Part shown: positions 8,547-64,000 of the stretch, one piece after another
Layout of the letters: each line of letters starts with the position of its first letter
Position numbering within the stretch: position 1 is the first letter of the stretch
Virus record (IMG/VR): IMGVR_UViG_3300025816_000009
Location: 17,412 to 81,411 of that record
DNA: 64,000 nucleotides
Source: a virus
Direction: 5' to 3' (one strand)
Notes under the pieces: model-generated
What the model was told of the DNA's origin: nothing
Seen by the model: only the letters and a program-made list of their open reading frames with translations
Database searches by the model: none
Translations under genes and position numbers: made by a program

Positions 8547-8723
8547 GGGAATGACCTTAGAAGGCTGAACGGATTAGGACATATTTCGAACTATGCACCG
8601 ACGTTGGAATAACTAACTCCACACCTTAGTCTCATTTCACTCTCTTTCAAGCACGTTATGAGATACCTTCACATTCCCGCCGCCCGTTGTGGTCGCGGGG
8701 CGACATAGGAACTAAGTTCCTAC
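8547..8723 (-). ncRNA. Putative structured RNA R3 (two 5' hairpins plus closed domain family)
   Basis: GTAGGAAC-TTA-GTTCCTAT; GTCGCCC...GGGCGGC; GGGAATG...CATTCCC closing stem. Confidence 0.6.
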
Positions 8724-8747
8724 AAACTAAGCGAAAGGCTCTCCCCT

Positions 8748-8800
8748 TATTAATGTTTCGGTGTATCAATGTCAGTGAACCTCAATGAAAAGGTTTATAA
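8748..8800. promoter_or_regulatory. Bidirectional class-E cassette driving R3 and R4
   Basis: TATTAATGTTTC-N6-TCAAT-N11-TCAAT-GAAAAGG-TTTATAA. Confidence 0.75.
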
Positions 8801-8823
8801 CTGAAAGCCTGCCTCATTAGTTT

Positions 8824-8934
8824 GTAGGAAGACGCGACACGACATCGACCCGGACGCGCCCTTTACTAGACGCTGTTGAAAAATACTCGCATGAAAGGGA
8901 CATGGATGGCGCTATTCACGCTCCGTCTTCCTAC
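8824..8934 (+). ncRNA. Putative structured RNA R4 (terminal-stem family)
   Basis: First 11 nt GTAGGAAGACG perfectly complementary to CGTCTTCCTAC at 8924-8934; starts 30 nt after TATA. Confidence 0.65.
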
Positions 8935-9536
8935 GACTTAATTCTATCAAAGACCATCAACGTGTTTTTGAACCACCAAAAACTTGAGTCTTTTCTAATT
9001 TGTAATGTATCGGCGAGATGCAAACTGAATCCTCGTCTCGCCATCTCCGCGATTATCACTTCATTCGGTTGTTCGTTTACGTGATAATATCCACCTTGTC
9101 CGGGAATTGCCCAAGATACAATTGCTCTGTTCAAACAAGTTTTACGGATGTTGTGAAGTAAATCTTGTTGCCTATTGGGTGGAATATGCTCGCCGACTTC
9201 TAGGCAGAGGATGTTCGCTCTGTCAAGTTCGACCAACTCTTCGGCCAAATCGACTTGGTGAATTGGATGAAATCTTGCGAGATGTTCTAGCGGCGTTCCT
9301 TCGAATCCTTCAACTTCGAAACCTTGCGTCGAAAGTGATACGCAATAATCTCCCGGTCCACAACCGAAGTCATAGATTGGTTCGTCCATTGGAAAATATT
9401 TCCACAAGTTTTTCATAAGGTCGGGGTCAGAACCATGCTGACCATCCGCTTCTTCGACATTCCAAATCCCGGTCGGTCCTACCATTGACTCACTTCTTCT
9501 TTTTGGAGCGATTTCCGAAAGCCTTTCTTTTACCAT
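8931..9536 (-). CDS. Class I SAM-dependent methyltransferase
   Basis: YDFGCGPG motif I; CLEVGEHI. Confidence 0.85.
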   Translation of the reverse strand: MVKERLSEIAPKRRSESMVGPTGIWNVEEADGQHGSDPDLMKNLWKYFPMDEPIYDFGCGPGDYCVSLSTQGFEVEGFEGTPLEHLARFHPIHQVDLAEELVELDRANILCLEVGEHIPPNRQQDLLHNIRKTCLNRAIVSWAIPGQGGYYHVNEQPNEVIIAEMARRGFSLHLADTLQIRKDSSFWWFKNTLMVFDRIKS

Positions 9537-9876
9537 CGGCTATGTCTTTTCGTTTCGCCATTTTCTTTGTTTCTTCCTTTAGTCTCTTAGTTATGACAGC
9601 GCCGGGTAAAACTTGTTGAGTAATTGGGTCATATTTGTAATAACCCGGATGACGTGCCTCACGGCGTTCTCTCATACAAATATCACAATAGTGCGTTGAG
9701 TCCTTGGTATGTGAGAACTTTTGCTTGACACCTTCGACGAATAATGCTCTTTCAAGCGCTTCTTGTCTTCCGTCTCCATATCCCATTCCGATTATGCAGG
9801 GACGACCGTGAGTCTTGCATGGTTCTCCGCATAATTTTGTTGGCTTTGATACTCTCTTAATTTCTCGTTGCTCCAT
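9490..9876 (-). CDS. Hypothetical Cys/His-rich basic protein
   Basis: ORF in operon; C..C..H..C and H.C..C clusters. Confidence 0.6.
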   Translation of the reverse strand: MEQREIKRVSKPTKLCGEPCKTHGRPCIIGMGYGDGRQEALERALFVEGVKQKFSHTKDSTHYCDICMRERREARHPGYYKYDPITQQVLPGAVITKRLKEETKKMAKRKDIADGKRKAFGNRSKKKK

Positions 9877-9877
9877 A

Positions 9878-11230
9878 TTATATCACCCTTGACATTCCGC
9901 CTAGCGGATGTATTTCAATTGCAGTCTTCAATATCTGCTTTTCTAATTGGTCAGTTAGAACATCCCAATTGAAGTTCTTCTCGGCAAACTTTCTCGCGTT
10001 CTCTCCGAACTCTTTTCTTTCTTCATCTTGTTCGTAAGCCGTTCGCATTTTCCAAGCGAGGTCTTCAATATCGACTAATGTCATATTGACTCCCCATTGA
10101 GGTCCTGTAATGTGAGTAGAGGACTTAGCAATCCAACCGCGTCGTTGAGGTCCGTAGCCGACAAGTTCCGGACCTGTTGAGTTATCGGGAAGAATGATTG
10201 GCTTTCCGCAGGCCATGGCTTCTGCTGATGGAATACCAAAACCTTCTCCGCCTGTAGCCATGATATGAACATCACATGATTGGAACAATCTCGCCATCTC
10301 TTCTGTTGTCAATCCCGAAAGTGGATTCGAACTTGTATCAGAGAAAGCGACGTAATCGCCTAAGTCGTATTGAGCGATAAGAGCCGGAAGATTCCAACCG
10401 CCCATTCCGAACGTGTCTGTCGGGTCGCCACAGTGTAGAACCAAGCCGACACTTTCGGGAACATCGGGATTGTAATGAATGAATTGTGAAAATGCTTCTA
10501 ACAACCGGGGTATTTGCTTCCGATTTGTATTTCTTGCCACACTCATAAACACGAAATCCCACTTAATTCCCATCTTCTCTTTTAGTTCCGCTTTTTCCTC
10601 GTCGGTGATTGGTTTGAAAATATCAAGTTCGACACCGTGATACAAAACCGGCGTATCTTCTGTAAGATAACGGTCGAGGATTCCATCTCTGTTTTCAACC
10701 GGCCTTGTTCCTTCGGATGAATAATCTTTTACAAACTCGGTGAAAGTTCTTTTTCCAAACTTGCTCATCCACATCGGCGTGTGAACCATTTTCAGAATAT
10801 CCTTCCAAGCCGGAGATATTGGAAATCCGTCTATTGGAAGATAAGCAATATAAGGGATTGACATTTTGTTTGTTGACATTACCGCATGACCAATATACCA
10901 AGGGTCAATTAAAGAAATGTAAATATCAATATCAAGTTTCTTTATTGTAGCCTCGAGAACTGTTGGGCTATTCGGTCCGCCCAAGTTTTCAGACCCATAC
11001 CCGGAGATACCGGCGTGAACCATAGTCCATCCTTCGGGGTGAAGAAAATCCTCGCCGTTGTAATCCCAACCCATAACGAAAACTTCGTGGCCTTTGGCTA
11101 CTAATCTCTTAATCAAGTTTCGACTTACGATTCCATATCCCGTTGGTCTTGTAGGTTGCTCGCTTCCCCATAGGATTCTCACCATGTCTTTCGGTTGAAA
11201 CCCACTACTATAACAGTTATGATTCATCAA
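9878..11230 (-). CDS. GT-B (GT4-like) glycosyltransferase
   Basis: PTGYG, RNTNRKQ, GEGFGIPSAEAMACGKPII, FNWD. Confidence 0.9.
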   Translation of the reverse strand: MMNHNCYSSGFQPKDMVRILWGSEQPTRPTGYGIVSRNLIKRLVAKGHEVFVMGWDYNGEDFLHPEGWTMVHAGISGYGSENLGGPNSPTVLEATIKKLDIDIYISLIDPWYIGHAVMSTNKMSIPYIAYLPIDGFPISPAWKDILKMVHTPMWMSKFGKRTFTEFVKDYSSEGTRPVENRDGILDRYLTEDTPVLYHGVELDIFKPITDEEKAELKEKMGIKWDFVFMSVARNTNRKQIPRLLEAFSQFIHYNPDVPESVGLVLHCGDPTDTFGMGGWNLPALIAQYDLGDYVAFSDTSSNPLSGLTTEEMARLFQSCDVHIMATGGEGFGIPSAEAMACGKPIILPDNSTGPELVGYGPQRRGWIAKSSTHITGPQWGVNMTLVDIEDLAWKMRTAYEQDEERKEFGENARKFAEKNFNWDVLTDQLEKQILKTAIEIHPLGGMSRVI

Positions 11231-11777
11231 TGGAAGGGCCGGGCATATTTTGTTTGTCTTTCAATTCCGCCTTTCTTTTTTCTCGGACTCTTTGTCTTTT
11301 TTTCTTTTGAGACTTGCGTCGAGATTTGATTGCGTTTACTCGGAGCGGGTCATCAATGGTATCGAGGTCAATAGTCTGTTTTCCCCCAACGTGTTCCGGA
11401 CCCTTGCCGACAAGTTTCTGTTCGTAGTGATGAATCCGATGACAATTTGAACAGAGGATGTCGCACTTCGCCATCTCTTCTTCGATTCTTTTTCTTGAAT
11501 ATCCATTACTTACCAAGTGCGAAACGCCGGCAGTTTTAGTTCCGGCAACACGATGATGATATTCTAAAAGCCAAGGACAAGTTTCGCCGCTCAATCCACA
11601 TTCCGAACAATTTGATTCTCTTCTGATTTCATCATACCAACGTCGAATATTCTTACGACGCAACGCAACTTCTGTCTTGCGTTTCTTTGCGTTATTTGCA
11701 TAATAGACCTTCTGATAACGGCGATTGTACGCCCTTCGCTTATCAGCGTCCTTGTACGGCACGATTGATTCGAGCAA
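11217..11777 (-). CDS. HNH endonuclease-like protein
   Basis: CSECG...LEYHH...EEMAKCDILCSNCHRIHH. Confidence 0.8.
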   Translation of the reverse strand: MLESIVPYKDADKRRAYNRRYQKVYYANNAKKRKTEVALRRKNIRRWYDEIRRESNCSECGLSGETCPWLLEYHHRVAGTKTAGVSHLVSNGYSRKRIEEEMAKCDILCSNCHRIHHYEQKLVGKGPEHVGGKQTIDLDTIDDPLRVNAIKSRRKSQKKKRQRVREKRKAELKDKQNMPGPSIDES

Positions 11778-11796
11778 GTTTGAGGTTATTTAGTGA

Positions 11797-11899
11797 GGTT
11801 GTAGAAGCCGGGGGAACGATTGCGGGTATTACAGGAGAGGACTTTCGTCTTACACACACACCGTCTTCTGTCTTCTTACCCCGGATTTCTTCTACTTCC
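11797..11899 (-). ncRNA. Putative structured RNA R5
   Basis: 5' GTAGAAG-AAAT-CCGGGG pairs with 3' CCCCGG-CTTCTAC; GAC-GAAA-GTC hairpin; starts 30 nt after TATA (11929). Confidence 0.6.
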
Positions 11900-11923
11900 A
11901 ATCTAAGCGAGTGGACTTTCATT

Positions 11924-11975
11924 AATAAAGGTTTTCATTGAGAGGTTAAGACATTGAGATAAGGAAACCTTTATA
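11924..11975. promoter_or_regulatory. Bidirectional class-E cassette
   Basis: AATAAAGGTTTTC-ATTGA-N11-ATTGA-N6-GAAACC-TTTATA. Confidence 0.75.
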
Positions 11976-11998
11976 GGTGGAAACCTCTAGGGTTAAAC

Positions 11999-12295
11999 AT
12001 GGCAAGACAGATGGCGCTTACACAACAAATCAGAAACAGACTACCTACTCTATACTCAACAGATGGAGCGGGAACAGAAGCAATCGGACAAGTACGATAC
12101 TTTTGGGGAAGCAGTGCTTCCTTCGTAGCAACAGAGTTCGACGGAGAAGATACATTCTTCGGATATATCAGCGGTGTTCAAGAAGACGGATGGACTTACA
12201 TGAGCCTTTCAGAAATGTGGTCAACACACGGACGCTTCATGGGTACAGAGAGAGATTACCACTTCACACCAACAGCAATCGCAAACCTACAGTAA
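11999..12295 (+). CDS. DUF2958-like protein
   Basis: LPTLYSTD, RYFW, VATEFDGEDTFFGYI, YMSLSEM, ERDYHF; leaderless ATG 29 nt after TATA. Confidence 0.7.
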   Translation: MARQMALTQQIRNRLPTLYSTDGAGTEAIGQVRYFWGSSASFVATEFDGEDTFFGYISGVQEDGWTYMSLSEMWSTHGRFMGTERDYHFTPTAIANLQ

Positions 12296-12334
12296 GCGAT
12301 TCCCTCATAAACCCCGAATCATCCTCGGAATAGT

Positions 12335-12736
12335 ATGGCGGTTCATGCGTTTACAGGAATCACAGGGCAAATAACAGTTAGTGGAACAATAGTCGGTTTC
12401 GTTTCGGGTGATTTTACAGTAGCAAGAGCGACAGGAAAATACATTACTCTCGGTTCAAACTTGCCGACAGCGAATACACGAGGATTACAATCAGTTAGCG
12501 GTAGTCTGACGAAAGCATGGGGTCTATCAGACGACACTCTATGGGATTGGTTTTACGGAGACACCGAACTTGTAATCGCATTTGACGCAGATGACCCATC
12601 TAGCGGCGGAACTCATACATACACAGTCTCCGGATGTGTTATTACAGATTTAGCAATTGAAGGCTTGGAAGCAGGCGCAGAAGGAGCATTGATGATTAAT
12701 GCGTCTTTCGAAGGACTATCAATCTTGAGAGATTGA
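12335..12736 (+). CDS. Major tail (tube) protein
   Basis: Beta-rich 133 aa directly before chaperone and tape measure genes. Confidence 0.7.
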   Translation: MAVHAFTGITGQITVSGTIVGFVSGDFTVARATGKYITLGSNLPTANTRGLQSVSGSLTKAWGLSDDTLWDWFYGDTELVIAFDADDPSSGGTHTYTVSGCVITDLAIEGLEAGAEGALMINASFEGLSILRD

Positions 12737-12746
12737 GTAAATTAAG

Positions 12747-13094
12747 GTGATTAAGATGACAGGATGGTTAAACTCCGCGCTCGAGAGGGCTTCGAACCCA
12801 ATAACAGTGAATGTAGCCGACTTAGGTTTAGAAGTCGATGAACTACAGGTGAAGACACTTAGCGCCGCCGAGTTTCAAATAATGAAGAAAGACCCTGCCA
12901 TATCAAACATGAACATCGCTGATAGGCAAGAATATATGGGCTTGAAAACTATCTATGAAATGTTAGCAAAATGCGATGACAGTTTGAAATGGTCAGAGTT
13001 TCAAAAATTACCTTTACAATTACTTTCAGAACTAGCGTCGAGAATAACTGAAACCGTCGGAAACTTGGACGGTGAAGGTGTTTTGGGAAACTGA
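12747..13094 (+). CDS. Tail assembly chaperone (gpG-like)
   Basis: Between tube and tape measure genes; ends in slippery G-GGA-AAC-TGA. Confidence 0.75.
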   Translation: MIKMTGWLNSALERASNPITVNVADLGLEVDELQVKTLSAAEFQIMKKDPAISNMNIADRQEYMGLKTIYEMLAKCDDSLKWSEFQKLPLQLLSELASRITETVGNLDGEGVLGN

Positions 13095-13309
13095 AACTTG
13101 ACGCCGAATCAGACGGCGGGCAGTTCCTCTATGGGCTATTGACCGAAATAGGTTGTACGCCTCAACAGTGGAGAGAAATGTCGTCAGAAGATACACTTTG
13201 GTACATATCAGCCCATAGTGAGAAAAACCGTCGCGCAAATGAATCGTCTCGTAAGCAATCGCAGATGGCGAAGGCGAGAAGTAATTTGGCGAAAAGTAGG
13301 AGACGATGA
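13085..13309 (+). CDS. -1 frameshift extension of tail chaperone (gpGT-like)
   Basis: -1 frame open from GGGAAAC (13085-13091) to TGA 13307-13309, overlapping the tape measure ATG. Confidence 0.7.
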   Translation, partial: GKLKLDAESDGGQFLYGLLTEIGCTPQQWREMSSEDTLWYISAHSEKNRRANESSRKQSQMAKARSNLAKSRRR

Positions 13310-15681
13310 ATATGGTTATGGGTGCAGGGAAAACGGCTGTCAATGCAGTTGTCTCCGCTGACGCTTCCGGTTATACAAAAGCCATGAAAGGAGTCGCCGC
13401 GGCAACAGGAACGGCAACTACGGCGGCTAAGGGATTCGGTGGAGCATTAGCCGGATTAGCCATCACCTTCGCAACTTTCTTCGCAGTTTTCAAAGCCATC
13501 GGTTTCGTTGTCAACACAGTCAAACTATTCATTGATTTTGAGGAACAACTTTTCCGCACAAGTGCGATTATGAAACAGTTCACACTTGGAGCAGAAGAAC
13601 AGGCTATCGCCATGGGTAAACTAGAAGACGAAATCCGAAGCGTTGCGGCAGGTTCGAAGTTCACAGCGACAGAAGTCGGCGCTATGGCTGAAACTCTAGC
13701 GCTTGCCGGTTTGTCGCTTGACCAAATGAGAGGTGCGACATCCGATTTAGACACGGAAGCCGGAAATGCTCTGAAAACAATGGTTGACTTCGCGGTTGTT
13801 GCCGGAACAGATGTTGAGACTGCGGCGGGAATTGGTATTGCATCTCTCAAAGCATTCAGACTTGATATTCAAGACCTAGAAAGAGCAACATCAGTATTGG
13901 CAAACACCTTCACTTCTTCTTTCGTGAACCTACAACAATTGGGTGATTCCATGCGTTTCTTCGGTCCTACTGCGGCGGCGGCAGGTGTGAGCATATCAGA
14001 AGCGGCGGCGGCTGTAGGTGCGCTTGGAGACGCGGGATTGCAGGGTTCTATGGCCGGTACGGGTCTTAGGCAGGCAATCAACAAATTAATCGCTCCGACA
14101 GATGATGCGAGAAGAACCATGGAGAGATTAGGATTTGAGTTTACGGTTTTATCACCGGCGGGCTTGGCGGCGAAAGAGGCACTAGGTTCGACAATCAGAA
14201 CCATTGACGATTTAGAAAAAACAATTTCGTCAGCGAACATGGAACTCAAATCTCTGAACAACGAATTAACCGACATGAGTATTGAAGAGGAAAAGAACTC
14301 AATCAACATCGCAAGGATTCGTCAAAGAGCGGCTAGGCAAAACCGAAACTTGACTAAAACCGAAATGGCTACAATCAAAAGATTGGAATCGGCCAATGAA
14401 GATTTAGCACTTGCTCAAAGAGAAGGTGCGTTGGAATCGAGACAAAGAGAAAGAGCGTTAGACAGGTCAACAGATTCGCTTGCAGAGCAGAATGACGCTT
14501 TCAAGATTCTCAAAGATACTGTCGATAGTCAAACCACAGGTGTCGGTAGTTTAGTCGATATGATAGAAGAACTGAATAGTTCCGGCGCTACGACAGCGGA
14601 GATATTGGAAATCTTCGGTGTTCGAGGTGGTGGTTCGATATTGGCTCTCCAAGGAAACGCCGAGGCTCTAAGGTCAATAGCAGAAGCGAATCAATTAGTA
14701 TTCGACGCGACTGATATGAATAACACACTACAAGACCAATTCGTTAGACAGTTAGAAGGCTCAACGGCTTTCGCGCTTGCTGAAACTCGTTCGAAGTTCG
14801 AGGAATTATCTTTGGTTATTGGTGAACCATTTGCTCGCTTGATAACAATGGAAGGTGGGATTAAGCAAACCCTCGATGCGGCAATTGAGAGAGCGTCGGG
14901 AATGGGCGATGAGTTTCAAATGATTGCTGATTCGGTCGAGACTGAATTATTGCCTGCGTTTGCAGAGGCTTTCAAACCCGGCAACGTGGAGAAGTTTGTT
15001 GAAATACTCGGCGCATTAGTTCCGGAAATATTGAAAATAGTTGGGGTCATTGGAAAATTAGCAGAGATAATAGAACCAATACTCGATGGTATTTTAGCAG
15101 TTATGGAGAAGATGGCCGAGTTCAAAGATTTCGTCGGTGATGATAACGAGGATAGAGAAACTAGGTTAGTCGGGAAGGAAGGCGAAACAACATTCGATTC
15201 TGTAAAAGACGTCGGGAAGATGACTGCGGCGGGAGCGGGAGTTGGCGCGTTGGTTGGTGGTCCTGTAGGCGCGTTAGCCGGAGCGGCTGTTGGTTTGGGT
15301 GCGGGTGTTGTTTTTGAAGTCGGGCAAGCAGTTGTTCATCATGGTGGAAATGCTTTAGATAATGAAACAGACATAATGGGAAATCCGGTAGGAATGCCGA
15401 TGGCAATTGGTGGAGTTGTTAACTCTCCAATTACAGCATTGATTGGGGAAGCCGGTCCGGAAGCAGTTATTCCGCTCGATAGGCTTCCGGAAATGGTAAG
15501 TCAAATTAATTCCACAAGTTCGACCTCAAATACCGAGCAGGTGATTAACCTCACTTTCGACTCAATCAATATCGGGGCGGGAAACAACGTCTCGGCGGGA
15601 GATATAAGGCAGATTATTGAAAATGAAATGCCTAAGATTATACGCAGTTCATTAACAAGAGGCGTTCGGGGGGTGTTGTGA
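13306..15681 (+). CDS. Tape measure protein (TP901-like core)
   Basis: SKFTATEVG, GLQGSMAGTGLR, MAIGGVV...LIGEAGPEAVIPL. Confidence 0.92.
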   Translation: MNMVMGAGKTAVNAVVSADASGYTKAMKGVAAATGTATTAAKGFGGALAGLAITFATFFAVFKAIGFVVNTVKLFIDFEEQLFRTSAIMKQFTLGAEEQAIAMGKLEDEIRSVAAGSKFTATEVGAMAETLALAGLSLDQMRGATSDLDTEAGNALKTMVDFAVVAGTDVETAAGIGIASLKAFRLDIQDLERATSVLANTFTSSFVNLQQLGDSMRFFGPTAAAAGVSISEAAAAVGALGDAGLQGSMAGTGLRQAINKLIAPTDDARRTMERLGFEFTVLSPAGLAAKEALGSTIRTIDDLEKTISSANMELKSLNNELTDMSIEEEKNSINIARIRQRAARQNRNLTKTEMATIKRLESANEDLALAQREGALESRQRERALDRSTDSLAEQNDAFKILKDTVDSQTTGVGSLVDMIEELNSSGATTAEILEIFGVRGGGSILALQGNAEALRSIAEANQLVFDATDMNNTLQDQFVRQLEGSTAFALAETRSKFEELSLVIGEPFARLITMEGGIKQTLDAAIERASGMGDEFQMIADSVETELLPAFAEAFKPGNVEKFVEILGALVPEILKIVGVIGKLAEIIEPILDGILAVMEKMAEFKDFVGDDNEDRETRLVGKEGETTFDSVKDVGKMTAAGAGVGALVGGPVGALAGAAVGLGAGVVFEVGQAVVHHGGNALDNETDIMGNPVGMPMAIGGVVNSPITALIGEAGPEAVIPLDRLPEMVSQINSTSSTSNTEQVINLTFDSINIGAGNNVSAGDIRQIIENEMPKIIRSSLTRGVRGVL

Positions 15682-15682
15682 G

Positions 15683-18600
15683 ATGGCAAAGTTTACTCAA
15701 AATATAACGAAGCCATTTTCGCGCTTGAAGAATGGTTTGGTTGAACTTCAAAGATGGTGGCCGGCTTATGTCAAGAATGACGGCGTTGGCGGATTGACTG
15801 TTGACCCTGTTTTGTATCACACCAACTTCGGACATCTCACAAATGCCGATGAAGGCTCACTGAACAGCGAGAATGATACGCCGGGGGTAAGAGTCGAGGC
15901 AATCAAAGACGACGGCACAGCGGCCGCTAATAACGACGGAAGCAATACAACATTCACAATCACTATCTCCGGCGCGGGAACTTTCAGTCCCATGTGCGTA
16001 GTCAGCCAAGCCGGAATTGAAACGAAGTTTATGCTCATCGCTCCATCTCCGGACACTCAAGCAAATGCAGAATCGGTTTACGGCGAGAGCGTTTCATCTA
16101 CCGATAGAGGATTCGGTGGCGGAACTACTTGGCTACTTAGTCAAGGTCCTTATCCTGTTTTCATGACAGTACAGGAGTTCGCAGAGATGCTTGATACATA
16201 CAGGCATATTGGTTCAAATGACGGACATAAGAAAGCATTCCTTCCTCATGCGATGCTCGGTGGCGGTGCTTTAGGTCTAGGAGCGTCCACAGCGCTTCCG
16301 CAGATACAGAATGACCCTAGAGTCTCATCAAGCACTAATTGGCCTGCTGACGGCTCAACAGCGTCAATAACACAATCTCTGATTCGAGCAACGGTCTTCA
16401 TGCCTTTGATGTTAGACAATAATCAATTTGATAAGAGAATAACCAATGCTAGTATTGACCATTCGACACCGAGAGACTACGGAACGACGACCAACCCCGA
16501 GTTTGTCGGTTATCTGACAGCAGATGGAACGGGAATAACAAGATATGATTCTGACCCTCAAGGTGAAGATTCGGCTACAATTAGATACAAAGATTTAGGA
16601 TATTCCGGCGACCACTTACAAGGAAAAGTGGGCGGGTGGTCATACTTTGAAATAAACAAAACACACAACAGCGGTACTCCGGTAAAAGGCGGAATGTCAA
16701 ATCCCGATATTACAGCAGATTCCGGTCCATCATTAGCGCCAAAATATAGAATGAGAATGGCGCTTGCCTGCTTTTTGAAAAATGGAACTTATGATATTAC
16801 AGACGGAAATATAATTCCTTACATTTACGACGCTGATAGAACAATCGGCGGAAAAAATACAATGACACTTTATCAAGTTTGGAACGGTAAAGATGGAAAA
16901 GGCGAAACAGGAAATACTCCGCAACATGATTGCGACGCGCAGATTTACCCGATGTTCGATTTCGTTCAAGGTCCTGTTTCACCGGCGGCTCAAGGTTCGA
17001 ACGCTCACAACAGCGCTTTGGCCGAAGCAAGGTCGTGGCCGAACTTGGTAGCACTAGACACGAATAAATCATTGACTGAAAAAATTAATCCAAAGTTCCA
17101 AATTGTCAGACCGAATCCTCGAAGGCATAGATTGTTCGGAGTTAAATTAACGACAGCCGGTGTCATGGAACTTTTCATTGAAGGAAGTGGAGTCGCAAGT
17201 TATTTTGATTTCCAATGCCGAGAAGGAATGCCGATTTACATCACAGGAATGACAGGGGTCTTGGGAACAGGTTCTCCCAATCCGGATTTCAGACTTGATG
17301 GTTATCAAGATGATGCGGCATCCTCGACAACAATTAATGCAACTAAAACGACAGGTGGTTGGAATATGAACGGTTGGTGGATTACAGCGGGTTTTAGTGC
17401 CGGGTTCGATGAAATCAGCACGAATACATATGATGAAATATTTGGCGATGGTGATTCTACCGCGGTCAAGTTTCAAATCGTTAGAATCAAAACTTTGGTA
17501 AACATTAGACCAACGTCTGAACATTTCTATAGAATAGGTTCAGCGGCTTCTCCATCAACAGCATACGTTTGTCAAGGAAGAAAACCGGGTTATATGGACC
17601 TAGTATTGAAGTTAGGCTCAACCACTAATCCTTACGGAATTGCGCCGATGAGTGTAGGCACGTCCATGGGTTCTCCCGGAAATACACAAGTTAGATTCGG
17701 CGGCGTTGGTTCTCATGGAAGTGGATTTAGTTCTGATACCAATGTTCCCCAATCTGAAAACGATACATATCCTTGTAGGCCAACCGTGAGAAATGCTCAA
17801 TACCCCGACTCAAGCGGACATTTTAACAACGATAATAATTACATTGTTAGAGCGATTAGTCCTCGCAAAGATGGAGACGACACTTTCTCAATGTCTCCGA
17901 CAGTATCTTCCTTTGGTGGTGGTTCTCTAAGAGTTCCGCCGCCTGTTGGTTGGGACTTACCACAGGCTTACTTTTCTTGGCCTATATACCAAACAGGACC
18001 GGCGGGAACTACAGTTCCGGGTAGTGAGACGGCTTCAAGAACGTCTCGTCTTTGGTTGAATGACACGACAGGCGCTTATCCGGTGAGAAACGTAAATGTT
18101 GATTATGGTAGTTTTTCCAAATGGGGTCATCGTGGATTATCAATTGCTATGTTGTCTTACATGGATTCGACTACGGGTCGCCACGCTTGGGATTACATAA
18201 AACCCGTTTCAACTTCGGGAAGTTGGTTATACGGAAGAAACAGACCTTGGCCGGCTCACGAAAGATGCGGAACAAGATTTGGTTATGGACCTTCATTATT
18301 AGAAACCGCCAAAGTCGTAAATACAAATGGGATTTCATACGATGGTTGGCAAGACTACAACGCAAATGGCGGCAATAGAATTGAGGCAGGCGAAGAGACT
18401 ACGAAGATAGGCGTCTCTGAAATCGGTTGTTCTCCTGTATGGTTAGACATGGAGATGAGAGCATTCGTCCCGGTCAGTGAAAACAGAATGACACTCATTG
18501 AGTTCGATAACGGTATTTCATATCCTGTACTCGGAAGACATTCTATGATTACAGGCGGAATAACAAACGACGCTCAATTCGGACTTGGGTTCTATCCAAA

Positions 18601-20533
18601 ATCATCAAACGGTTCAAAACAACAATTCAACGCTTCGACTGCCCCCGAAAGTCAATTGCTTGGAGCATTACAGAACTCATCCGTGGCAACTTCCGGCGTT
18701 GATACAAGAAGACCGACATTCACGCTTGGTCGTCCGGCTGTATATATTTGGGGAACTTCTCCATATTTCTCAAATGCTGATTGGTCGAATACCGATACTT
18801 GGCCGTTCAGTACAAATAAACTTGGTTGGGGTGGTTTAGGAAGTGATGTTGGTTATGGAACAGGAACAGCATTAGCAGAGGGAACTCAAACAATTAGAAC
18901 TGTATTCACCGAAGGCGGAATGGAATTACTTTTGAATGGTAATAGCAAAGGTGTTGACACGAACTCGGGTCAGCACATTTGGGGAATGACAATCAAAGCC
19001 TGCGATGTGTTGGCGGCTAACGGAAGTATCAACACACCGACGGTAATTAAGAACAGTAAGGACGAACCGATTACAAACTCAAGTCCGAATCTAGCCGTAT
19101 CTTCTAAAGATTTACAGATTGATTATTTGACGCTTAGACAAATCCCATCTCCGGCCATGCTTCCTTTTGATGTTAGTACGACAACACAGTCCGTTGCTAA
19201 CGTAGCAAAATATCGAAGCCTCGACATCACGGCTGAAAACATTAGCACTAGCAGAGGTATGAGGATTCGAGTCAGTCTTTTCGAACCGCCTGCGGCGACA
19301 GGAATCCCGCAGGCAGAACCAACTACGGCAATTACAGGATTCACAGATTTAGACCCGGGATTCATAGCAGGTGTTGGAAGTGTTGACCTTTCAAACTTGC
19401 CTGCGTCAGCAATAACAAATGGTTTCGTCATCAAATATCATTTCTATATTCCTCATTCAAATGAAACTGATTTACATCCGATTAATTGGAATCAGATTCC
19501 TATCATTAGAAATTGGGAAGTTCAGTATGATTTGAAACCGACGGCAAGTTTGGACGTGATTGGAAACTCATTCAGTGGCGACCTATCGAGTCCAATAGGA
19601 ACAGAAGTGGGCCACATAATCTCGTTCAGAGGAACAGGAATTACAACTGACGTTGATAGATTAATTTCTCAAATCAAGTTTGACTTCGGTGATGGTTCTC
19701 AAACAGGTTGGTTAGATTTTTCCGACCAAACTTTACAAACAACTACTTACGATGTTGCTCACGTTTATTCGAAAGCAGGTTCTTTCAACGCGGTTGTATA
19801 TTCAAAAGATGACAACGGAAATGAGTCTGTAGCAAGTTCCGCAATATCTGTAGTCGTAGCAGAAGTGAAACCTGTCGCCCTATTGAGAGCAATACCTTCC
19901 ATGATAAGAGCCGGACAAGCAACAACTTTTGACGCTTCTGAAAGTTATGTTTTGTCAACTGACCAATCGAGAACAATTGCATCTTATACATTTGATTTCG
20001 GAGATGGCAGTTCAACTGTCTCCGGCTCAAGCCCGAATGCCGACCATACTTATGCAACCGCCGGAGAATATATGGCGACAGTCAGCGCGACTGACAACGC
20101 ATCTCCGGCCAATACATCCGTTGTCGCGAAAGTGGTTGTCAAGATATTACCTGCGACTCTTGTAATACCGTTAAATCTCAACACCAAGCCGGCTTCATTT
20201 GACCGAACAAGAAAAGCGAACTATAGTTCCACGCCTGTTCTTGATGCAGTATATCCGGAAATGAGCGACATGGGTTCGAGAAGTGATGAGTTCAAGATGA
20301 CAGGTTCATTCCTCAAGGCGACAGCGAATGCCGATATTGATTTCATGGAAGAGATTCTAGTCAGTGGCTCTTTAGTCGAGTTCGAATATGAAGATACAGA
20401 TTACAGCGGAAGTGCAGTAAACAAAAAGTTCGTAGGAAGATTAACTGATTTCAACTATCAAAGAGAAGGTGGACGCCATGGCGAAACACCGTGGTCGGCT
20501 ACGCTGATGCGTGAAGCCGGACTAGGAAATTAA
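15683..20533 (+). CDS. Large tail protein with two C-terminal PKD domains
   Basis: Follows tape measure gene; FDFGDG...HVYSKAGSF and FDFGDG...HTYATAGEY. Confidence 0.75.
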   Translation: MAKFTQNITKPFSRLKNGLVELQRWWPAYVKNDGVGGLTVDPVLYHTNFGHLTNADEGSLNSENDTPGVRVEAIKDDGTAAANNDGSNTTFTITISGAGTFSPMCVVSQAGIETKFMLIAPSPDTQANAESVYGESVSSTDRGFGGGTTWLLSQGPYPVFMTVQEFAEMLDTYRHIGSNDGHKKAFLPHAMLGGGALGLGASTALPQIQNDPRVSSSTNWPADGSTASITQSLIRATVFMPLMLDNNQFDKRITNASIDHSTPRDYGTTTNPEFVGYLTADGTGITRYDSDPQGEDSATIRYKDLGYSGDHLQGKVGGWSYFEINKTHNSGTPVKGGMSNPDITADSGPSLAPKYRMRMALACFLKNGTYDITDGNIIPYIYDADRTIGGKNTMTLYQVWNGKDGKGETGNTPQHDCDAQIYPMFDFVQGPVSPAAQGSNAHNSALAEARSWPNLVALDTNKSLTEKINPKFQIVRPNPRRHRLFGVKLTTAGVMELFIEGSGVASYFDFQCREGMPIYITGMTGVLGTGSPNPDFRLDGYQDDAASSTTINATKTTGGWNMNGWWITAGFSAGFDEISTNTYDEIFGDGDSTAVKFQIVRIKTLVNIRPTSEHFYRIGSAASPSTAYVCQGRKPGYMDLVLKLGSTTNPYGIAPMSVGTSMGSPGNTQVRFGGVGSHGSGFSSDTNVPQSENDTYPCRPTVRNAQYPDSSGHFNNDNNYIVRAISPRKDGDDTFSMSPTVSSFGGGSLRVPPPVGWDLPQAYFSWPIYQTGPAGTTVPGSETASRTSRLWLNDTTGAYPVRNVNVDYGSFSKWGHRGLSIAMLSYMDSTTGRHAWDYIKPVSTSGSWLYGRNRPWPAHERCGTRFGYGPSLLETAKVVNTNGISYDGWQDYNANGGNRIEAGEETTKIGVSEIGCSPVWLDMEMRAFVPVSENRMTLIEFDNGISYPVLGRHSMITGGITNDAQFGLGFYPKSSNGSKQQFNASTAPESQLLGALQNSSVATSGVDTRRPTFTLGRPAVYIWGTSPYFSNADWSNTDTWPFSTNKLGWGGLGSDVGYGTGTALAEGTQTIRTVFTEGGMELLLNGNSKGVDTNSGQHIWGMTIKACDVLAANGSINTPTVIKNSKDEPITNSSPNLAVSSKDLQIDYLTLRQIPSPAMLPFDVSTTTQSVANVAKYRSLDITAENISTSRGMRIRVSLFEPPAATGIPQAEPTTAITGFTDLDPGFIAGVGSVDLSNLPASAITNGFVIKYHFYIPHSNETDLHPINWNQIPIIRNWEVQYDLKPTASLDVIGNSFSGDLSSPIGTEVGHIISFRGTGITTDVDRLISQIKFDFGDGSQTGWLDFSDQTLQTTTYDVAHVYSKAGSFNAVVYSKDDNGNESVASSAISVVVAEVKPVALLRAIPSMIRAGQATTFDASESYVLSTDQSRTIASYTFDFGDGSSTVSGSSPNADHTYATAGEYMATVSATDNASPANTSVVAKVVVKILPATLVIPLNLNTKPASFDRTRKANYSSTPVLDAVYPEMSDMGSRSDEFKMTGSFLKATANADIDFMEEILVSGSLVEFEYEDTDYSGSAVNKKFVGRLTDFNYQREGGRHGETPWSATLMREAGLGN

Positions 20534-20534
20534 G

Positions 20535-20725
20535 TGTAGGTGGGAGCGACCCATAGAACTCTCGACAGGTAATCAAGGCGGGTCATCGTCCCTTTTCCTC
20601 AACACCAAGCCGCACGACGACCGCATACACTGACGCCTTCGTGGTTCTCCTACTTTGTAAAAGTCCGCGGGGGGTTAGTCGCCGTAGGGTTCGTACCTTT
20701 CGCGGTGTCCGTCGCGTCCTCTTAC
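20535..20725 (-). ncRNA. Putative structured RNA R6
   Basis: Starts GTAAGAGGACGCGAC 30 nt after TATA (20755); 3' GTCGCTCC complementary; ORF-free. Confidence 0.55.
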
Positions 20726-20785
20726 AAACTAATGACAGAGCCTTTTGGTTATAAACCTTTTCATTGAGAGTTTAGTAATATTGAG

Positions 20786-20993
20786 GTAAGAGAAGCGGGC
20801 AATTACAAACCTTCTTGGAATCTCTTCCTTTTCTCGGTTTCCTCATCCTGTCCCGTCTTCTCTTAGGTTGTAAGATTTCGCGTTGCTGTTGGTCCTAGCC
20901 TTTTAGTGATATTTTCCATCATTCTATTCAAGTTTTTACACTCTGTTTCTTTCACTACCCTAACTTTCACGAATCCGCGCCGCGTCCTCTTAC
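20786..20993 (-). ncRNA. Putative RNA R7 (purine-rich, terminal stem)
   Basis: Starts GTAAGAGGACGCGG, ends CCGCTTCTCTTAC; first 13 nt identical to R6. Confidence 0.55.
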
Positions 20994-21016
20994 AAACTAA
21001 ACGAGTCGTCTTTTGG

Positions 21017-21069
21017 TTATAAACCTTTTTATTGAGAGTTCTTTACATTGATAGTTCGAAACACTTATA
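21017..21069. promoter_or_regulatory. Bidirectional class-E cassette (one-sided copy also at 20749-20784)
   Basis: TTATAAACCTTTTT-ATTGA-N11-ATTGA-N6-GAAACA-CTTATA. Confidence 0.75.
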
Positions 21070-21092
21070 AGGGGGAATGCCTAGGACAGAAC

Positions 21093-21368
21093 ATGAACTG
21101 CCAAGAGGAACAAATGACTCAAGAAATGTGGGACGCTATGCCGGAAGGTATGACCGTAAACTATGTGCGTCAAATGGAACAAATGACTCCTAGAGTAGCC
21201 CCGACTGTATCTGTAATGAACGGTTCTTCCCATCAATGGGACGCTGAAGTAGGCGCTTGGTATGCTACTCGTATAACCAACATGGACGAATTATTGTGGG
21301 CTTACGCTGTTAGAACTGACGGTGGAGATGCTTGGGTCGCTACTGAAACAGAGAGGGTTTACGCTTGA
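21093..21368 (+). CDS. Hypothetical protein (start 21093)
   Basis: ATG 29 nt after cassette TATA; first gene of 4-gene insert. Confidence 0.6.
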   Translation: MNCQEEQMTQEMWDAMPEGMTVNYVRQMEQMTPRVAPTVSVMNGSSHQWDAEVGAWYATRITNMDELLWAYAVRTDGGDAWVATETERVYA

Positions 21369-33064: not shown

Positions 33065-33122
33065 ATTTGACCCTGTAGCCGTTTAGTTATAAACCTTTTC
33101 ATTGATAACTCAAGACATTGAT

Positions 33123-33205
33123 GAGGCGGGGGAGCAACCCCCCATTTAGAATCAAGCCCGCAACCATGCGTGGGAATCGAACCTCTCGTAGCCCTCTTCT
33201 TCCTC
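33123..33205 (-). ncRNA. Putative small RNA R11 with T-loop-like motif
   Basis: GAGG...CCTC ends; GGTTCGATTCC; CGCA-TGGT-TGCG; GGGGG-N6-CCCCC. Confidence 0.5.

Positions 33206-60241: not shown

Positions 60242-64000
<3,759 letters not shown>

What the first reader, a model, noticed from the sequence alone, without database searches (positions are those of the whole stretch)
8824..20993. RNA family B: GTA(A/G)GA(A/G)GACGCG 5' end paired to 3' end (R4, R6, R7)
Seen: R4 GTAGGAAGACGCGAC, R6 GTAAGAGGACGCGAC, R7 GTAAGAGGACGCGGC. The 3' ends change in compensation (R4 CGTCTTCCTAC, 11-bp perfect; R7 CCGCTTCTCTTAC; R6 weaker) while the interiors are unrelated. R6 and R7 are a tandem pair. Inference: a constant terminal stem presenting variable interiors, as expected for guide, decoy or circularised RNAs.
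Basis: partly seen in the sequence, partly recalled or inferred. Interest (0 to 1): 0.75.

Follow-up and report, generated by a model that had tools for sequence, protein, structure and literature searches.

The report
Stem-clamped RNA modules, marine archaeal virus
A tailed virus that probably infects marine archaea carries several small genes for folded, non-coding RNAs, each closed by a helix between its two ends; these RNAs match no known family and their role is unknown.

Summary
That is 3 matches against 0.17 expected by chance. Each copy starts about 30 nt after an archaeal-type BRE/TATA promoter cassette. Five leaderless genes of this genome place the transcription start at that distance.

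R4 is one hairpin-like RNA closed by an 11-bp helix. A relative changes one pair of that helix on both sides, A-U to U-A.

R6 and R7 are not single RNAs closed end to end. Each is two stem-closed modules in tandem. For R6 this rests on an A-U to G-C double change in a metagenome relative. For R7 it rests on folding energy alone.

Relatives keep the closing helix while hairpins inside it are inserted, deleted or replaced. One interior type sits at two different genome positions.

No Rfam family matches. There are no C/D boxes and no reverse transcriptase, Cas or Nop protein. Complementarity to targets is not conserved. A splicing-type bulge-helix-bulge site is not a family feature.

Transcription, RNA ends and function remain unshown.

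Best reading: a new, lineage-restricted family of modular structured viral RNAs, perhaps protein-binding decoys or scaffolds. The scan noted other RNA genes and shuffled cassettes in related viruses, but not this family.

The parts
8760..8823 (+). Promoter cassette of R4: TCAAT-N-TCAAT repeats, BRE/TATA-like AAAGGTTTATAAC (8789-8801), spacer ending in TTAGTTT
   Evidence: The spacing to the start is calibrated by 5 leaderless genes.
8824..8934 (+). R4 unit, 111 nt. The 5' strand 8824-8834 pairs with the 3' strand 8924-8934 (11 bp, 13 with one bulge); the interior is an irregular hairpin with a variable apical part.
   Evidence: The A9-U103 pair becomes U-A in L011/L075.
8935..8968 (+). Possible 3' tail of R4 up to a T5 run. 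It is antisense to the last codons of the convergent methyltransferase gene (8931-9536, -), whose stop codon lies inside R4's 3' strand.
   Evidence: Read. The termination site is inferred, not shown.
20994..21060 (-). Bidirectional promoter cassette. One side drives R7; the other drives the leaderless gene starting at ATG 21093 (+).
20870..20993 (-). R7a unit, 124 nt: GUAAGA-GGA-CGCG ... CGCG-AAA-UCUUAC
   Evidence: (9 of 1000 shuffles as good). No homologue was found, so there is no covariation test.
20786..20866 (-). R7b unit, 81 nt: UAAGAGAAG-A-CGGG ... CCCG-CUUCUCUUA
   Evidence: (1 of 1000)
20726..20785 (-). Promoter cassette of R6, directly after R7b
20657..20725 (-). R6a unit, 69 nt: GUAAGAG-GA-CGCG ... 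CGCG-GA-CUUUUAC
   Evidence: (6 of 1000). The same helix holds a larger interior in L071.
20536..20653 (-). R6b unit, 118 nt: GUAGG ... CCUAC closing helix, a conserved 3' domain and two replaceable inner segments. It ends 2 nt from the stop codon of the convergent tail-fibre gene (15683-20533, +).
   Evidence: Pair 3/117 is A-U in 2 sequences and G-C in L071. The inner segments are replaced in L007.
11801..11899 (-). Related unit outside the finding: GUAGAAG...CUUCUAC clamp behind the same promoter type, lying in the 5' leader of the glycosyltransferase/methyltransferase operon
   Evidence: (9 of 500 shuffles as good)

Best explanation
Family B is a set of paralogous genes for small structured non-coding RNAs of an 81-kb tailed virus with archaeal-type promoters and replication genes. 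The virus is probably a relative of the magroviruses of marine group II archaea.

Each gene sits on the back side of a bidirectional promoter cassette and points toward the end of a convergent operon. Transcription is predicted to start at the G of GUA(A/G)GA.

The RNA is built of one or two modules of 69-148 nt. Each module is closed by a helix between a purine-rich 5' strand (GUARGAR...) and a co-evolving pyrimidine-rich 3' strand (...YUCYUAC, usually followed by A).

The helix acts as a clamp. It insulates the folding of each module and probably protects the RNA ends. The interior is a set of hairpins with conserved loops that can be inserted, deleted or swapped without touching the clamp.

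My inference, not shown: these are stable, strongly expressed RNAs that bind a host or viral protein, as decoys or scaffolds, rather than base-pairing guides.

Shown here: the motif, the promoter context, the module architecture, compensatory changes, and module exchange between loci and genomes.

Inferred only: the transcription start, the 3' ends, expression level, stability and the binding role.
For: 1. Motif and promoter. There are 3 exact copies of the motif against 0.17 expected. The promoter occurs 7 times in the window against 0 expected. In the genome it has 11 hits at 4 or fewer mismatches, 10 of them in intergenic cassettes.

2. Start site. In 5 genes the ATG lies at position 30 from the first T of the TATA-like octamer. 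The family-B G lies at position 31, and position 30 is a T.

3. Clamp helices against shuffles (shuffles out of 1000 that do as well): R4 2, R6a 6, R7a 9, R7b 1, L017 unit 0, L071 unit 3.

4. Changes on both sides of a pair:
- R4 pair 9/103, A-U to U-A in 1 of 4 sequences.
- R6b pair 3/117, A-U to G-C in 1 of 3.
- L017 versus L071 interior, 4 of 38 predicted pairs, plus one G-U to G-C.
- The paralogues R4 (GUAGGAAG/CUUCCUAC) and L017 (GUAAGAGG/CCUCUUAC) differ at two positions, each matched in the partner strand.

5. Module exchange. R7 is absent in L007/L034/L072. The L017-type interior lies at the R4 position in L017 and inside the R6a clamp in L071. L035 has another interior at the R6 position.

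6. Not coding. The 60-aa frame over R4 is shifted by a 1-nt difference in L011 (read).

7. Strand. R6b, R7a, R7b and the L017, L071, L035 and L010 units fold better on the promoter strand.

8. No known family or partner enzyme. Rfam gives 0 matches at gathering score over the window and none relevant at E up to 10 over both loci. ARAGORN finds 0 tRNAs. Of 86 ORFs listed, 60 were scanned against Pfam and none hit a reverse transcriptase, Cas, Nop, TROVE/Ro, RtcB or L7Ae family.
Against: Expression is not shown. Contigs of four RNA libraries cover coding and non-coding parts alike at depth 2-5. They bridge the predicted starts (8687-8897, 8700-8872, 20630-20906), which fits DNA carry-over or read-through, not an abundant discrete RNA.

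R4 and R6a fold better on the opposite strand (-38.8 against -31.7 and -26.8 against -21.4 kcal/mol).

In L008/L076/L079 and L017 the inverted repeat runs 7-8 bp beyond the predicted start, into TTAGTTT. A transcript starting at G cannot use those pairs.

The shared 5' 13-15 nt are contiguous with a duplicated promoter, so their conservation alone says little.

Covariation rests on 2-4 sequences per unit. R7 has no homologue at all.

R6 as a whole folds no better than shuffles (z -0.63). R6b's 5-bp clamp alone is not unusual (198 of 1000 shuffles).

No protein partner is identified, and the decoy or scaffold role is a guess by analogy.
Confidence: 0.45

Rival explanations
1. DNA-level element. 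The inverted ends together with the promoter cassette are joints for recombination that shuffle cassettes between loci and genomes, as promoter-early stem-loops (PeSLs) do in T4-type phages. On this view the RNA is a by-product.
For: Whole units are gained, lost or exchanged exactly at the promoter/5' strand and at the 3' strand. The palindrome extends beyond the predicted transcript in some relatives, reaching 19 bp in L008. R4's arms are perfectly symmetric, so both strands read GTAGGAAGAC. PeSLs are strong promoters plus stem-loops that mediate modular shuffling (PMC2839356, abstract read). Earlier notes of this scan report shuffled cassettes in related viruses (unchecked leads).
Against: Helices inside the units, far from any joint, also keep pairing through changes on both sides (4 of 38 pairs). 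Clamp mismatches are G-U on the promoter strand (R6a, R7, L035), which DNA symmetry does not need. Loops are conserved while their stems vary: AUUAACG in L017 and L071. The two readings do not exclude each other.
Confidence: 0.2
2. The elements serve the convergent operons. Read on the opposite strand, they are 3'-untranslated stem-loops that end or stabilise the methyltransferase and tail-fibre mRNAs. Alternatively, the short transcripts only insulate those genes from the back side of a bidirectional promoter.
For: R4's 3' strand contains the methyltransferase stop codon, and R6b ends 2 nt from the tail-fibre stop codon. The antisense strands of R4 and R6a fold better than the sense strands. 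All these RNA genes point toward the end of a convergent gene.
Against: A complete promoter with correct spacing precedes each unit on the other strand. R6b, R7a, R7b and the units of relatives fold better on the promoter strand. The tandem R7-R6 pair, each with its own promoter, is not needed for a terminator. The A-rich and T-rich flanks are in the wrong order for a hairpin-plus-U-run terminator (read). L036-L038 have a protein gene at this place instead.
Confidence: 0.12
3. Guide RNAs. The variable interiors base-pair with host or viral RNA or DNA, either as antisense regulators or as H/ACA-like modification guides held by the terminal helix.
For: The interiors are variable within a constant frame. 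A 15-nt stretch of R6b is identical to the antisense strand of the tail-fibre gene at 20177-20191 (E 0.012). In 11 of 14 units the 3' strand plus the next base spells ACA. Several units have large internal loops.
Against: The 15-nt match is the only one below E 0.1 for three RNAs against 81 kb. The L007 variant of R6b, next to a 99%-identical tail-fibre end, has no match on the parts of its contig searched (L007, L009, L034). No unit has a C box: 0 of 15 have RUGAUGA. The AC of the 'ACA' is paired, ACA is missing in window R4 and in L011, no K-turn is evident, and R4's internal loop lies more than 17 nt from the 3' end. Variable parts are themselves paired hairpins, not open guide strands. No effector gene turned up among the 60 ORFs scanned. 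Host genomes could not be searched.
Confidence: 0.1
4. Precursors of circular RNAs. The closing helix brings the ends together for the archaeal splicing endonuclease and RtcB, or for an RNA ligase.
For: Ends paired in a helix are what circularised archaeal RNAs often have (recalled knowledge, not tested here). R6a, R7a and the L071 unit can be redrawn as helix / 3-nt bulge / 4 bp / 3-nt bulge / helix.
Against: Such candidates are no more frequent than in shuffles: 3 and 4 found against means of 2.84 and 2.7. The redrawing needs a base upstream of the predicted start and competes with a more stable continuous helix. R4 and the L017 unit have uninterrupted 11-13-bp helices where it is impossible. 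No back-joints appear in RNA contigs, though the depth is too low to count as evidence. No ligase was found among the 60 ORFs scanned.
Confidence: 0.07
5. No functional RNA. On this view the shared 5' bases are only duplicated promoter sequence and the complements are chance or relics.
For: The motif is contiguous with the promoter and is at least as conserved as the promoter spacer. Expression is not shown. The folding z-scores are weak.
Against: An 11-bp perfect complement is found in 2 of 1000 shuffles. Both-sided changes occur in three different units. The internal units R6b and R7b keep the motif and its partner without any promoter.
Confidence: 0.06

Closest known systems
Abundant small structured RNAs of viruses with paired ends (adenovirus VA RNA I/II, EBV EBERs; phi29 pRNA; T4 RNAC/RNAD). 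All are recalled from general knowledge, not from a call.
   Same: They are short non-coding viral genes with their own strong promoter. The 5' and 3' ends form a terminal stem that carries a structured body. Tandem paralogues arise by duplication (VA I/II versus R7/R6). Sequence diverges fast over a kept architecture.
   Different: There is no sequence or Rfam relation. The host is from a different domain and the promoters are different. The modules here are exchangeable and can be chained two per transcript. No partner protein or function is known.
PeSL (promoter-early stem-loop) mobile regulatory cassettes of T4-type phages (Arbiol et al. 2010, PMC2839356; abstract read)
   Same: A dispersed strong promoter plus stem-loop repeats mark the joints where relatives have gained, lost and replaced units.
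   Different: PeSLs flank small protein genes, and the stem-loop is a terminator. Here the cargo is the folded RNA itself, the stem encloses the cargo, and inner helices covary. No mini-circles were tested.
Archaeal box H/ACA and box C/D guide RNAs
   Same: They are archaeal small RNAs made of one to three hairpins with a closing stem. ACA often follows the stem here (11 of 14 units).
   Different: There are no C/D boxes (0 of 15 units). The ACA overlaps paired bases and is not invariant. No K-turn or K-loop was recognised. The distance from pocket to ACA does not fit in R4.
Tan1 and other orphan RNAs of marine group II archaea and their viruses
   Same: They come from the same ecological and host setting and are stand-alone, promoter-driven structured RNAs of unknown function.
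   Different: No similarity was found. Rfam, which holds manA, gives no match here. Tan1's sequence was not on hand for a direct comparison.

Membership tests
Any Rfam family (release 15) | Covariance-model score at or above the family's gathering score | tested here: not met
   There are 0 matches over the whole window. At E up to 10 over 20400-21100 and 8700-9000, the only match is one unrelated chance hit on the other strand.
tRNA / tmRNA | Cloverleaf found by ARAGORN | tested here: not met
   0 genes in the window
Archaeal box C/D sRNA | C box RUGAUGA near the 5' end and D box CUGA near the 3' end, next to the terminal stem | tested here: not met
   RUGAUGA occurs in 0 of 15 units. CUGA occurs in 2 of 15, at internal positions.
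Archaeal box H/ACA sRNA | Single-stranded ACA directly after the lower stem | tested here: inconclusive
   ACA can be read in 11 of 14 units, but only by using the last two paired bases of the stem. It is absent in window R4, L011 R4 and R7b.
Archaeal box H/ACA sRNA | Pseudouridylation pocket about 14-16 nt from ACA, and a K-turn or K-loop in the upper stem (rule recalled from the literature) | tested here: not met
   R4's large internal loop lies 17 nt or more from the 3' end. No GA/AG pair with a 3-nt bulge is seen in the folds. This was judged by eye, not with a dedicated program.
BHB-dependent circular RNA or intron-like element | Helix, 3-nt bulge, 4-bp helix, 3-nt bulge, helix at the unit borders | tested here: not met
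   There are 3 and 4 candidates against shuffle means of 2.84 and 2.7. The geometry is possible only in R6a, R7a and the L071 unit in a less stable register, and is impossible in R4 and the L017 unit.
Retron non-coding RNA (msr-msd) | Adjacent reverse transcriptase gene | tested here: not met
   No RT family appears among the 60 of 86 ORFs scanned against Pfam. The neighbours are a methyltransferase, a tail-fibre gene and small ORFs.
CRISPR or TIGR guide arrays | Short regular repeats with spacers, plus a Cas or Nop-domain (Tas) gene | tested here: not met
   The units are 69-148 nt with no repeat-spacer periodicity. No Cas or Nop hit appears among the 60 ORFs scanned. The TIGR-Tas paper was seen only as a search listing.
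Y RNA / Ro60 system | Rfam Y RNA or YrlA model match, and a TROVE-domain protein | tested here: not met
   No Rfam match. No TROVE hit among the 60 ORFs scanned. The host proteome is not testable here.
PeSL-type mobile regulatory cassette | Dispersed strong promoter plus stem-loop repeats at which relatives differ by insertion, deletion and replacement | tested here: met
   There are 10 cassette copies. Units are gained, lost or replaced at them in L007/L034, L035, L017 and L071. This shows likeness in behaviour only, with no sequence relation and a different cargo.
PeSL-type mobile regulatory cassette | The stem-loop works as a transcription terminator, and mini-circle DNA is formed | not testable with these tools
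   This needs experiments or raw DNA reads.

The most novel reading that the evidence does not exclude
The virus runs a plug-and-play RNA display system. A promoter-linked clamp helix forms a constant frame into which structured hairpin inserts are loaded. Inserts are chained and exchanged between loci and between viruses by recombination at the clamp. The resulting abundant RNAs act as a changeable set of decoys for host RNA-binding defence or RNA-processing proteins, which would be the first RNA-based counter-defence repertoire described for an archaeal virus.
Probability: 0.2. Interest if true: 0.85.

Novelty: new variant of a known kind. Interest (0 to 1): 0.6.

Why it matters
In the papers I could search, non-coding RNAs of viruses of marine group II archaea are not described. 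The terms promoter, non-coding, ncRNA and intergenic do not occur in the main text of two magrovirus papers. No paper holds Poseidoniales, virus and non-coding RNA together.

A frame-plus-insert RNA design that evolves by swapping hairpins would be a new way for a virus to diversify RNA tools, and a natural scaffold for RNA engineering.

Even the modest result is useful. It gives a calibrated promoter-to-start rule for these viruses and a set of RNA genes that annotation pipelines miss.

Tried and rejected
Known families. Rfam at gathering score and at E up to 10 and ARAGORN found nothing.

Self-targets. blastn-short of R4, R6 and R7 against the 81-kb genome gave one 15-nt match. It was not confirmed in relatives.

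RNA libraries. One search found 5 holders in 2 studies, all with shares of 0.19 or less. Laying 4 of them gave only contigs of depth 2-5, no joints and no pile-ups of starts or ends. This shows neither expression nor its absence. Parts without cover mean nothing.

Wider homologues.
- Pattern scans of IMG/VR: the 31 stretches added no new family-B start; nine distinct family-B starts were found over all loci held by then.
- JGI metagenomes: 10 stretches, of which 4 (L070, L073, L074, L078) are chance hits in unrelated DNA.
- GTDB genomes: 1 chance hit, in a Flavobacterium.
- GenBank phages: no match to the R6/R7 DNA or to the capsid protein.
- Relatives with 50-80% tail-fibre identity have a protein gene or unrelated sequence at the R6 position.
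- Protein searches: PolB has many relatives on contigs of about 75-86 kb, and the methyltransferase has closer relatives in other collections. Their DNA could not be fetched.

Host search.

Forced end-to-end fold of R6. The constraint forced non-standard pairs, so I do not use that energy.

A shared inner motif GAAAGGGAC seen by eye in R4, R6b, L017 and R7b does not hold the same structural place, so I dropped it. A likeness of the 5' motif to the sarcin-ricin loop and to Shine-Dalgarno sequences is recalled and untested, and is not used.

My first literature search was badly set (any term) and useless.

Supplementary files of papers were closed. Table S5 of PMC5069720 (start sites in marine group II contigs) might bear on the promoter-to-start spacing.

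Full report
**What the window is.** The window is bases 17412-81411 of an 81,411-bp virus record rated complete. It encodes a portal, prohead protease, HK97-type capsid protein, tape-measure protein, a 1616-aa PKD-domain tail protein and a terminase. It also encodes a family-B DNA polymerase, an RFC-like clamp loader, an XPF/ERCC4-HhH nuclease, a PrimPol-like protein, CobS/CobT-like ATPases, several methyl- and glycosyltransferases and collagen-repeat proteins (60 of 86 listed ORFs scanned). GenBank phages hold no relative of the capsid protein or of the R6/R7 DNA. The polymerase has dozens of relatives on contigs of 75-86 kb from marine assemblies, some named archaea-type by their source. Together with the promoter type described next, this points to a tailed virus of marine archaea. 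I call it magrovirus-like on these grounds. Host and family are not proven.

**Promoter and start site.** The 21-mer TCAATGAAAAGGTTTATAAC, allowing up to 3 mismatches, occurs 7 times in the window against 0 expected. At up to 4 mismatches it occurs 11 times in the genome, 10 of them in intergenic cassettes. It reads as a BRE plus TATA box (AAAGG-TTTATAAC) preceded by two TCAAT repeats. Many copies have a second TATA-like element pointing the other way.

In five genes (ATG at window -4472, 21093, 33305, 38169, 46045) the ATG lies exactly at position 30 from the first T of such an octamer. This is what leaderless archaeal mRNAs look like, and it calibrates the start. In family B, position 30 is a T and position 31 is the G of GTA(A/G)GA.

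**The observation.** GTARGARGACGCG is present at 8824 (+), 20725 (-) and 20993 (-). That is 3 matches against 0.17 expected, and 0 of 100 shuffles reach 3. The shorter GTARGARGAC has 5 exact copies, all in non-coding RNA loci: three 5' ends, the opposite arm of R4, and an inner site of the 11899 RNA.

R4 (8824-8934) closes with a perfect 11-bp helix, 13 bp with one bulge. Two of 1000 shuffles of the downstream part pair as well with the 5' 13-mer.

- R6's minimum free energy fold has two domains: 1-69, GUAAGAG-GA-CGCG...CGCG-GA-CUUUUAC, and 73-190, GUAGG...CCUAC.
- R7's fold also has two domains: 1-125, GUAAGA...UCUUAC, and 129-206, UAAGAGAAG-A-CGGG...CCCG-CUUCUCUUA.
- Duplex energies agree. 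For R6, the 5' end with the inner partner gives -16.6 and with the far 3' end -12.9 kcal/mol. For R7, the inner 5' strand with the far 3' end gives -20.3, against -18.2 for the transcript's 5' end.

**Relatives.** Pattern scans and neighbour-protein searches gave a small set of relatives, some seen in both collections.

At the R4 locus:
- L008/L076 and L079 are nearly identical to the window.
- L011/L075 has position 9 changed A to T and its partner changed T to A. Its apical hairpin is replaced by a shorter one.
- L017 (methyltransferase 82% identical) has in the same place GUAAGAGGGCGCG...CGCGUCCUCUUAC around an unrelated 120-nt interior of three hairpins.

At the R6 locus:
- L007/L034/L072 lack R7, keep R6a, and have R6b with two inner segments replaced while the clamp and the 3' domain stay.
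- L071 keeps the R6a clamp, but its interior is the L017-type three-hairpin body. Its R6b has GUGGG...CCCAC where the window has GUAGG...CCUAC.
- L035 has a different RNA, GUAAGAGUAG...CUUGCUCUUAC, around two copies of another hairpin.
- More distant relatives carry a protein gene there.

The L071 double change fits the inner pairing.

Between L017 and L071, 4 of 38 predicted pairs change on both sides and one changes G-U to G-C, while the 7-nt loops AUUAACG stay. These counts come from 2-4 sequences per unit and are small. They fall in three independent units and in both clamp and inner helices.

The alignment also suggests that the window's R6a is a shortened relative of the L017/L071 body. 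The interiors therefore evolve by gain and loss of hairpins rather than being wholly unrelated.

**Points against a simple RNA-gene reading.**
1. RNA-library contigs give no sign of abundant discrete RNAs. Depth is 2-5 over genes and RNA loci alike, and contigs bridge the predicted starts. This is compatible with DNA carry-over or read-through.
2. R4 and R6a fold better on the opposite strand. R4's 3' strand holds the stop codon of the convergent methyltransferase gene.
3. In L008/L076/L079 and L017 the inverted repeat extends 7-8 bp into TTAGTTT, upstream of the predicted start. In L017 this involves a G-T pair, which would be G-U only on the promoter strand. This may mean read-through precursors, or DNA-level homogenisation of palindrome arms. 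I cannot tell which.
4. The 5' motif is contiguous with a duplicated promoter.

These points keep two rivals alive: a DNA-level shuffling joint, and a role for the convergent operons.

- Guide. Only one 15-nt identity to the virus's own genes was found (R6b 114-128 against the antisense strand of the tail-fibre gene at 20177-20191, E 0.012). The L007 variant shows no such match on the parts of its contig that I could search. The variable parts are paired hairpins. No C/D boxes occur (0 of 15 units). The ACA after the stem (11 of 14 units) overlaps paired bases and is not invariant.
- Circular RNA. A bulge-helix-bulge geometry can be drawn for three units, but it is no more frequent than in shuffles and is impossible in R4 and the L017 unit.
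- Decoy. This cannot be tested here. I keep it as the most likely role only by exclusion and by analogy with other viral small RNAs that have paired ends.

**Extent of the clamp.** For each of the 11 promoter hits I tested the first 12 nt after the predicted start against the next 300 nt. Only R4 (0 of 500 shuffles as good), R7 (8), the 11899 RNA (9) and R6 (17) stand out. The other RNAs of the repertoire do not. The clamp is thus a family-B trait, plus one relative in an operon leader. It is not a general property of this virus's RNAs.

**Comparison with what is known.** No Rfam family matches. In behaviour the closest things are two.
- Small viral RNAs with terminal stems and tandem paralogues (VA RNAs, EBERs, phi29 pRNA, T4 RNAC/D; recalled, not from a call).
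- At the DNA level, the PeSL cassettes of T4-type phages (PMC2839356, abstract).

Membership in C/D, H/ACA, retron, CRISPR/TIGR, Y RNA or BHB-intron classes fails on tested features.

Two magrovirus papers do not mention promoters or non-coding RNAs in their main text. A search for Poseidoniales, virus and non-coding RNA together found no paper.

**Verdict.** The architecture needed correction: five clamped modules, not three end-to-end RNAs. The frame-with-changeable-interior idea is supported by comparative evidence. The function is open, and expression remains to be shown.

Noticed in passing
window 21093, 33305, 38169, 46045; genome 12940 (window -4472): Five genes have their ATG exactly at position 30 from the first T of a TATA-like octamer, and two more at position 31. 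This suggests leaderless mRNAs and a fixed promoter-to-start spacing in this virus.
   Followed up: partly
window 11801-11899 (-): A unit with the same kind of clamp (GUAGAAG...CUUCUAC, then AAC) lies behind the same promoter type. It sits in the 5' leader of the glycosyltransferase/methyltransferase operon and carries GUAAGAAGAC again inside.
   Followed up: partly
window 8816-8823 and the 3' flanks in L008, L076, L079, L017: TTAGTTT, upstream of the predicted start, is complementary to the bases after the 3' strand (AAACTAAT or AAATTAAAT). The palindrome therefore reaches 19 bp, and the last codons of the methyltransferase differ accordingly.
   Followed up: partly
window 20177-20191 versus R6b (20598-20612, -): A 15-nt stretch of R6b's variable segment is identical to the antisense strand of the tail-fibre gene about 340 nt before its stop codon. 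It is present in L071 and absent from the L007 variant.
   Followed up: partly
L035 3405-3620 (-); L010 3260-3300 (+): A hairpin module AAUCACGUCUCUAGGGAGUGGAUU recurs three times in two neighbouring RNAs of L035 and once in an RNA of L010. It looks like a second exchangeable module type.
   Followed up: no
window 33120-33205 (-): Another promoter-driven RNA contains GGTTCGATTCC, a T-loop-like stretch, and ends in a G/C hairpin. ARAGORN calls no tRNA there.
   Followed up: no
L034 3590-3800 (-): Where the window has R7, this close relative has about 100 nt of unrelated sequence between two promoter elements. Read on the other strand, that sequence starts GTAGGCGTCTCC behind a reverse TATA-like element.
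   Followed up: no
genome 236-3806 and window 60242-64000: Long collagen-repeat proteins are encoded at both ends of the record. Collagen-like disordered proteins were reported as extremely highly expressed on marine group II contigs (PMC5069720, section 10).
   Followed up: no
window 17162-17181 (-): There is a promoter-like hit with 4 mismatches inside the tail-fibre ORF (TCAATGAAAAGTTCCATGAC). I took it as chance.
   Followed up: no
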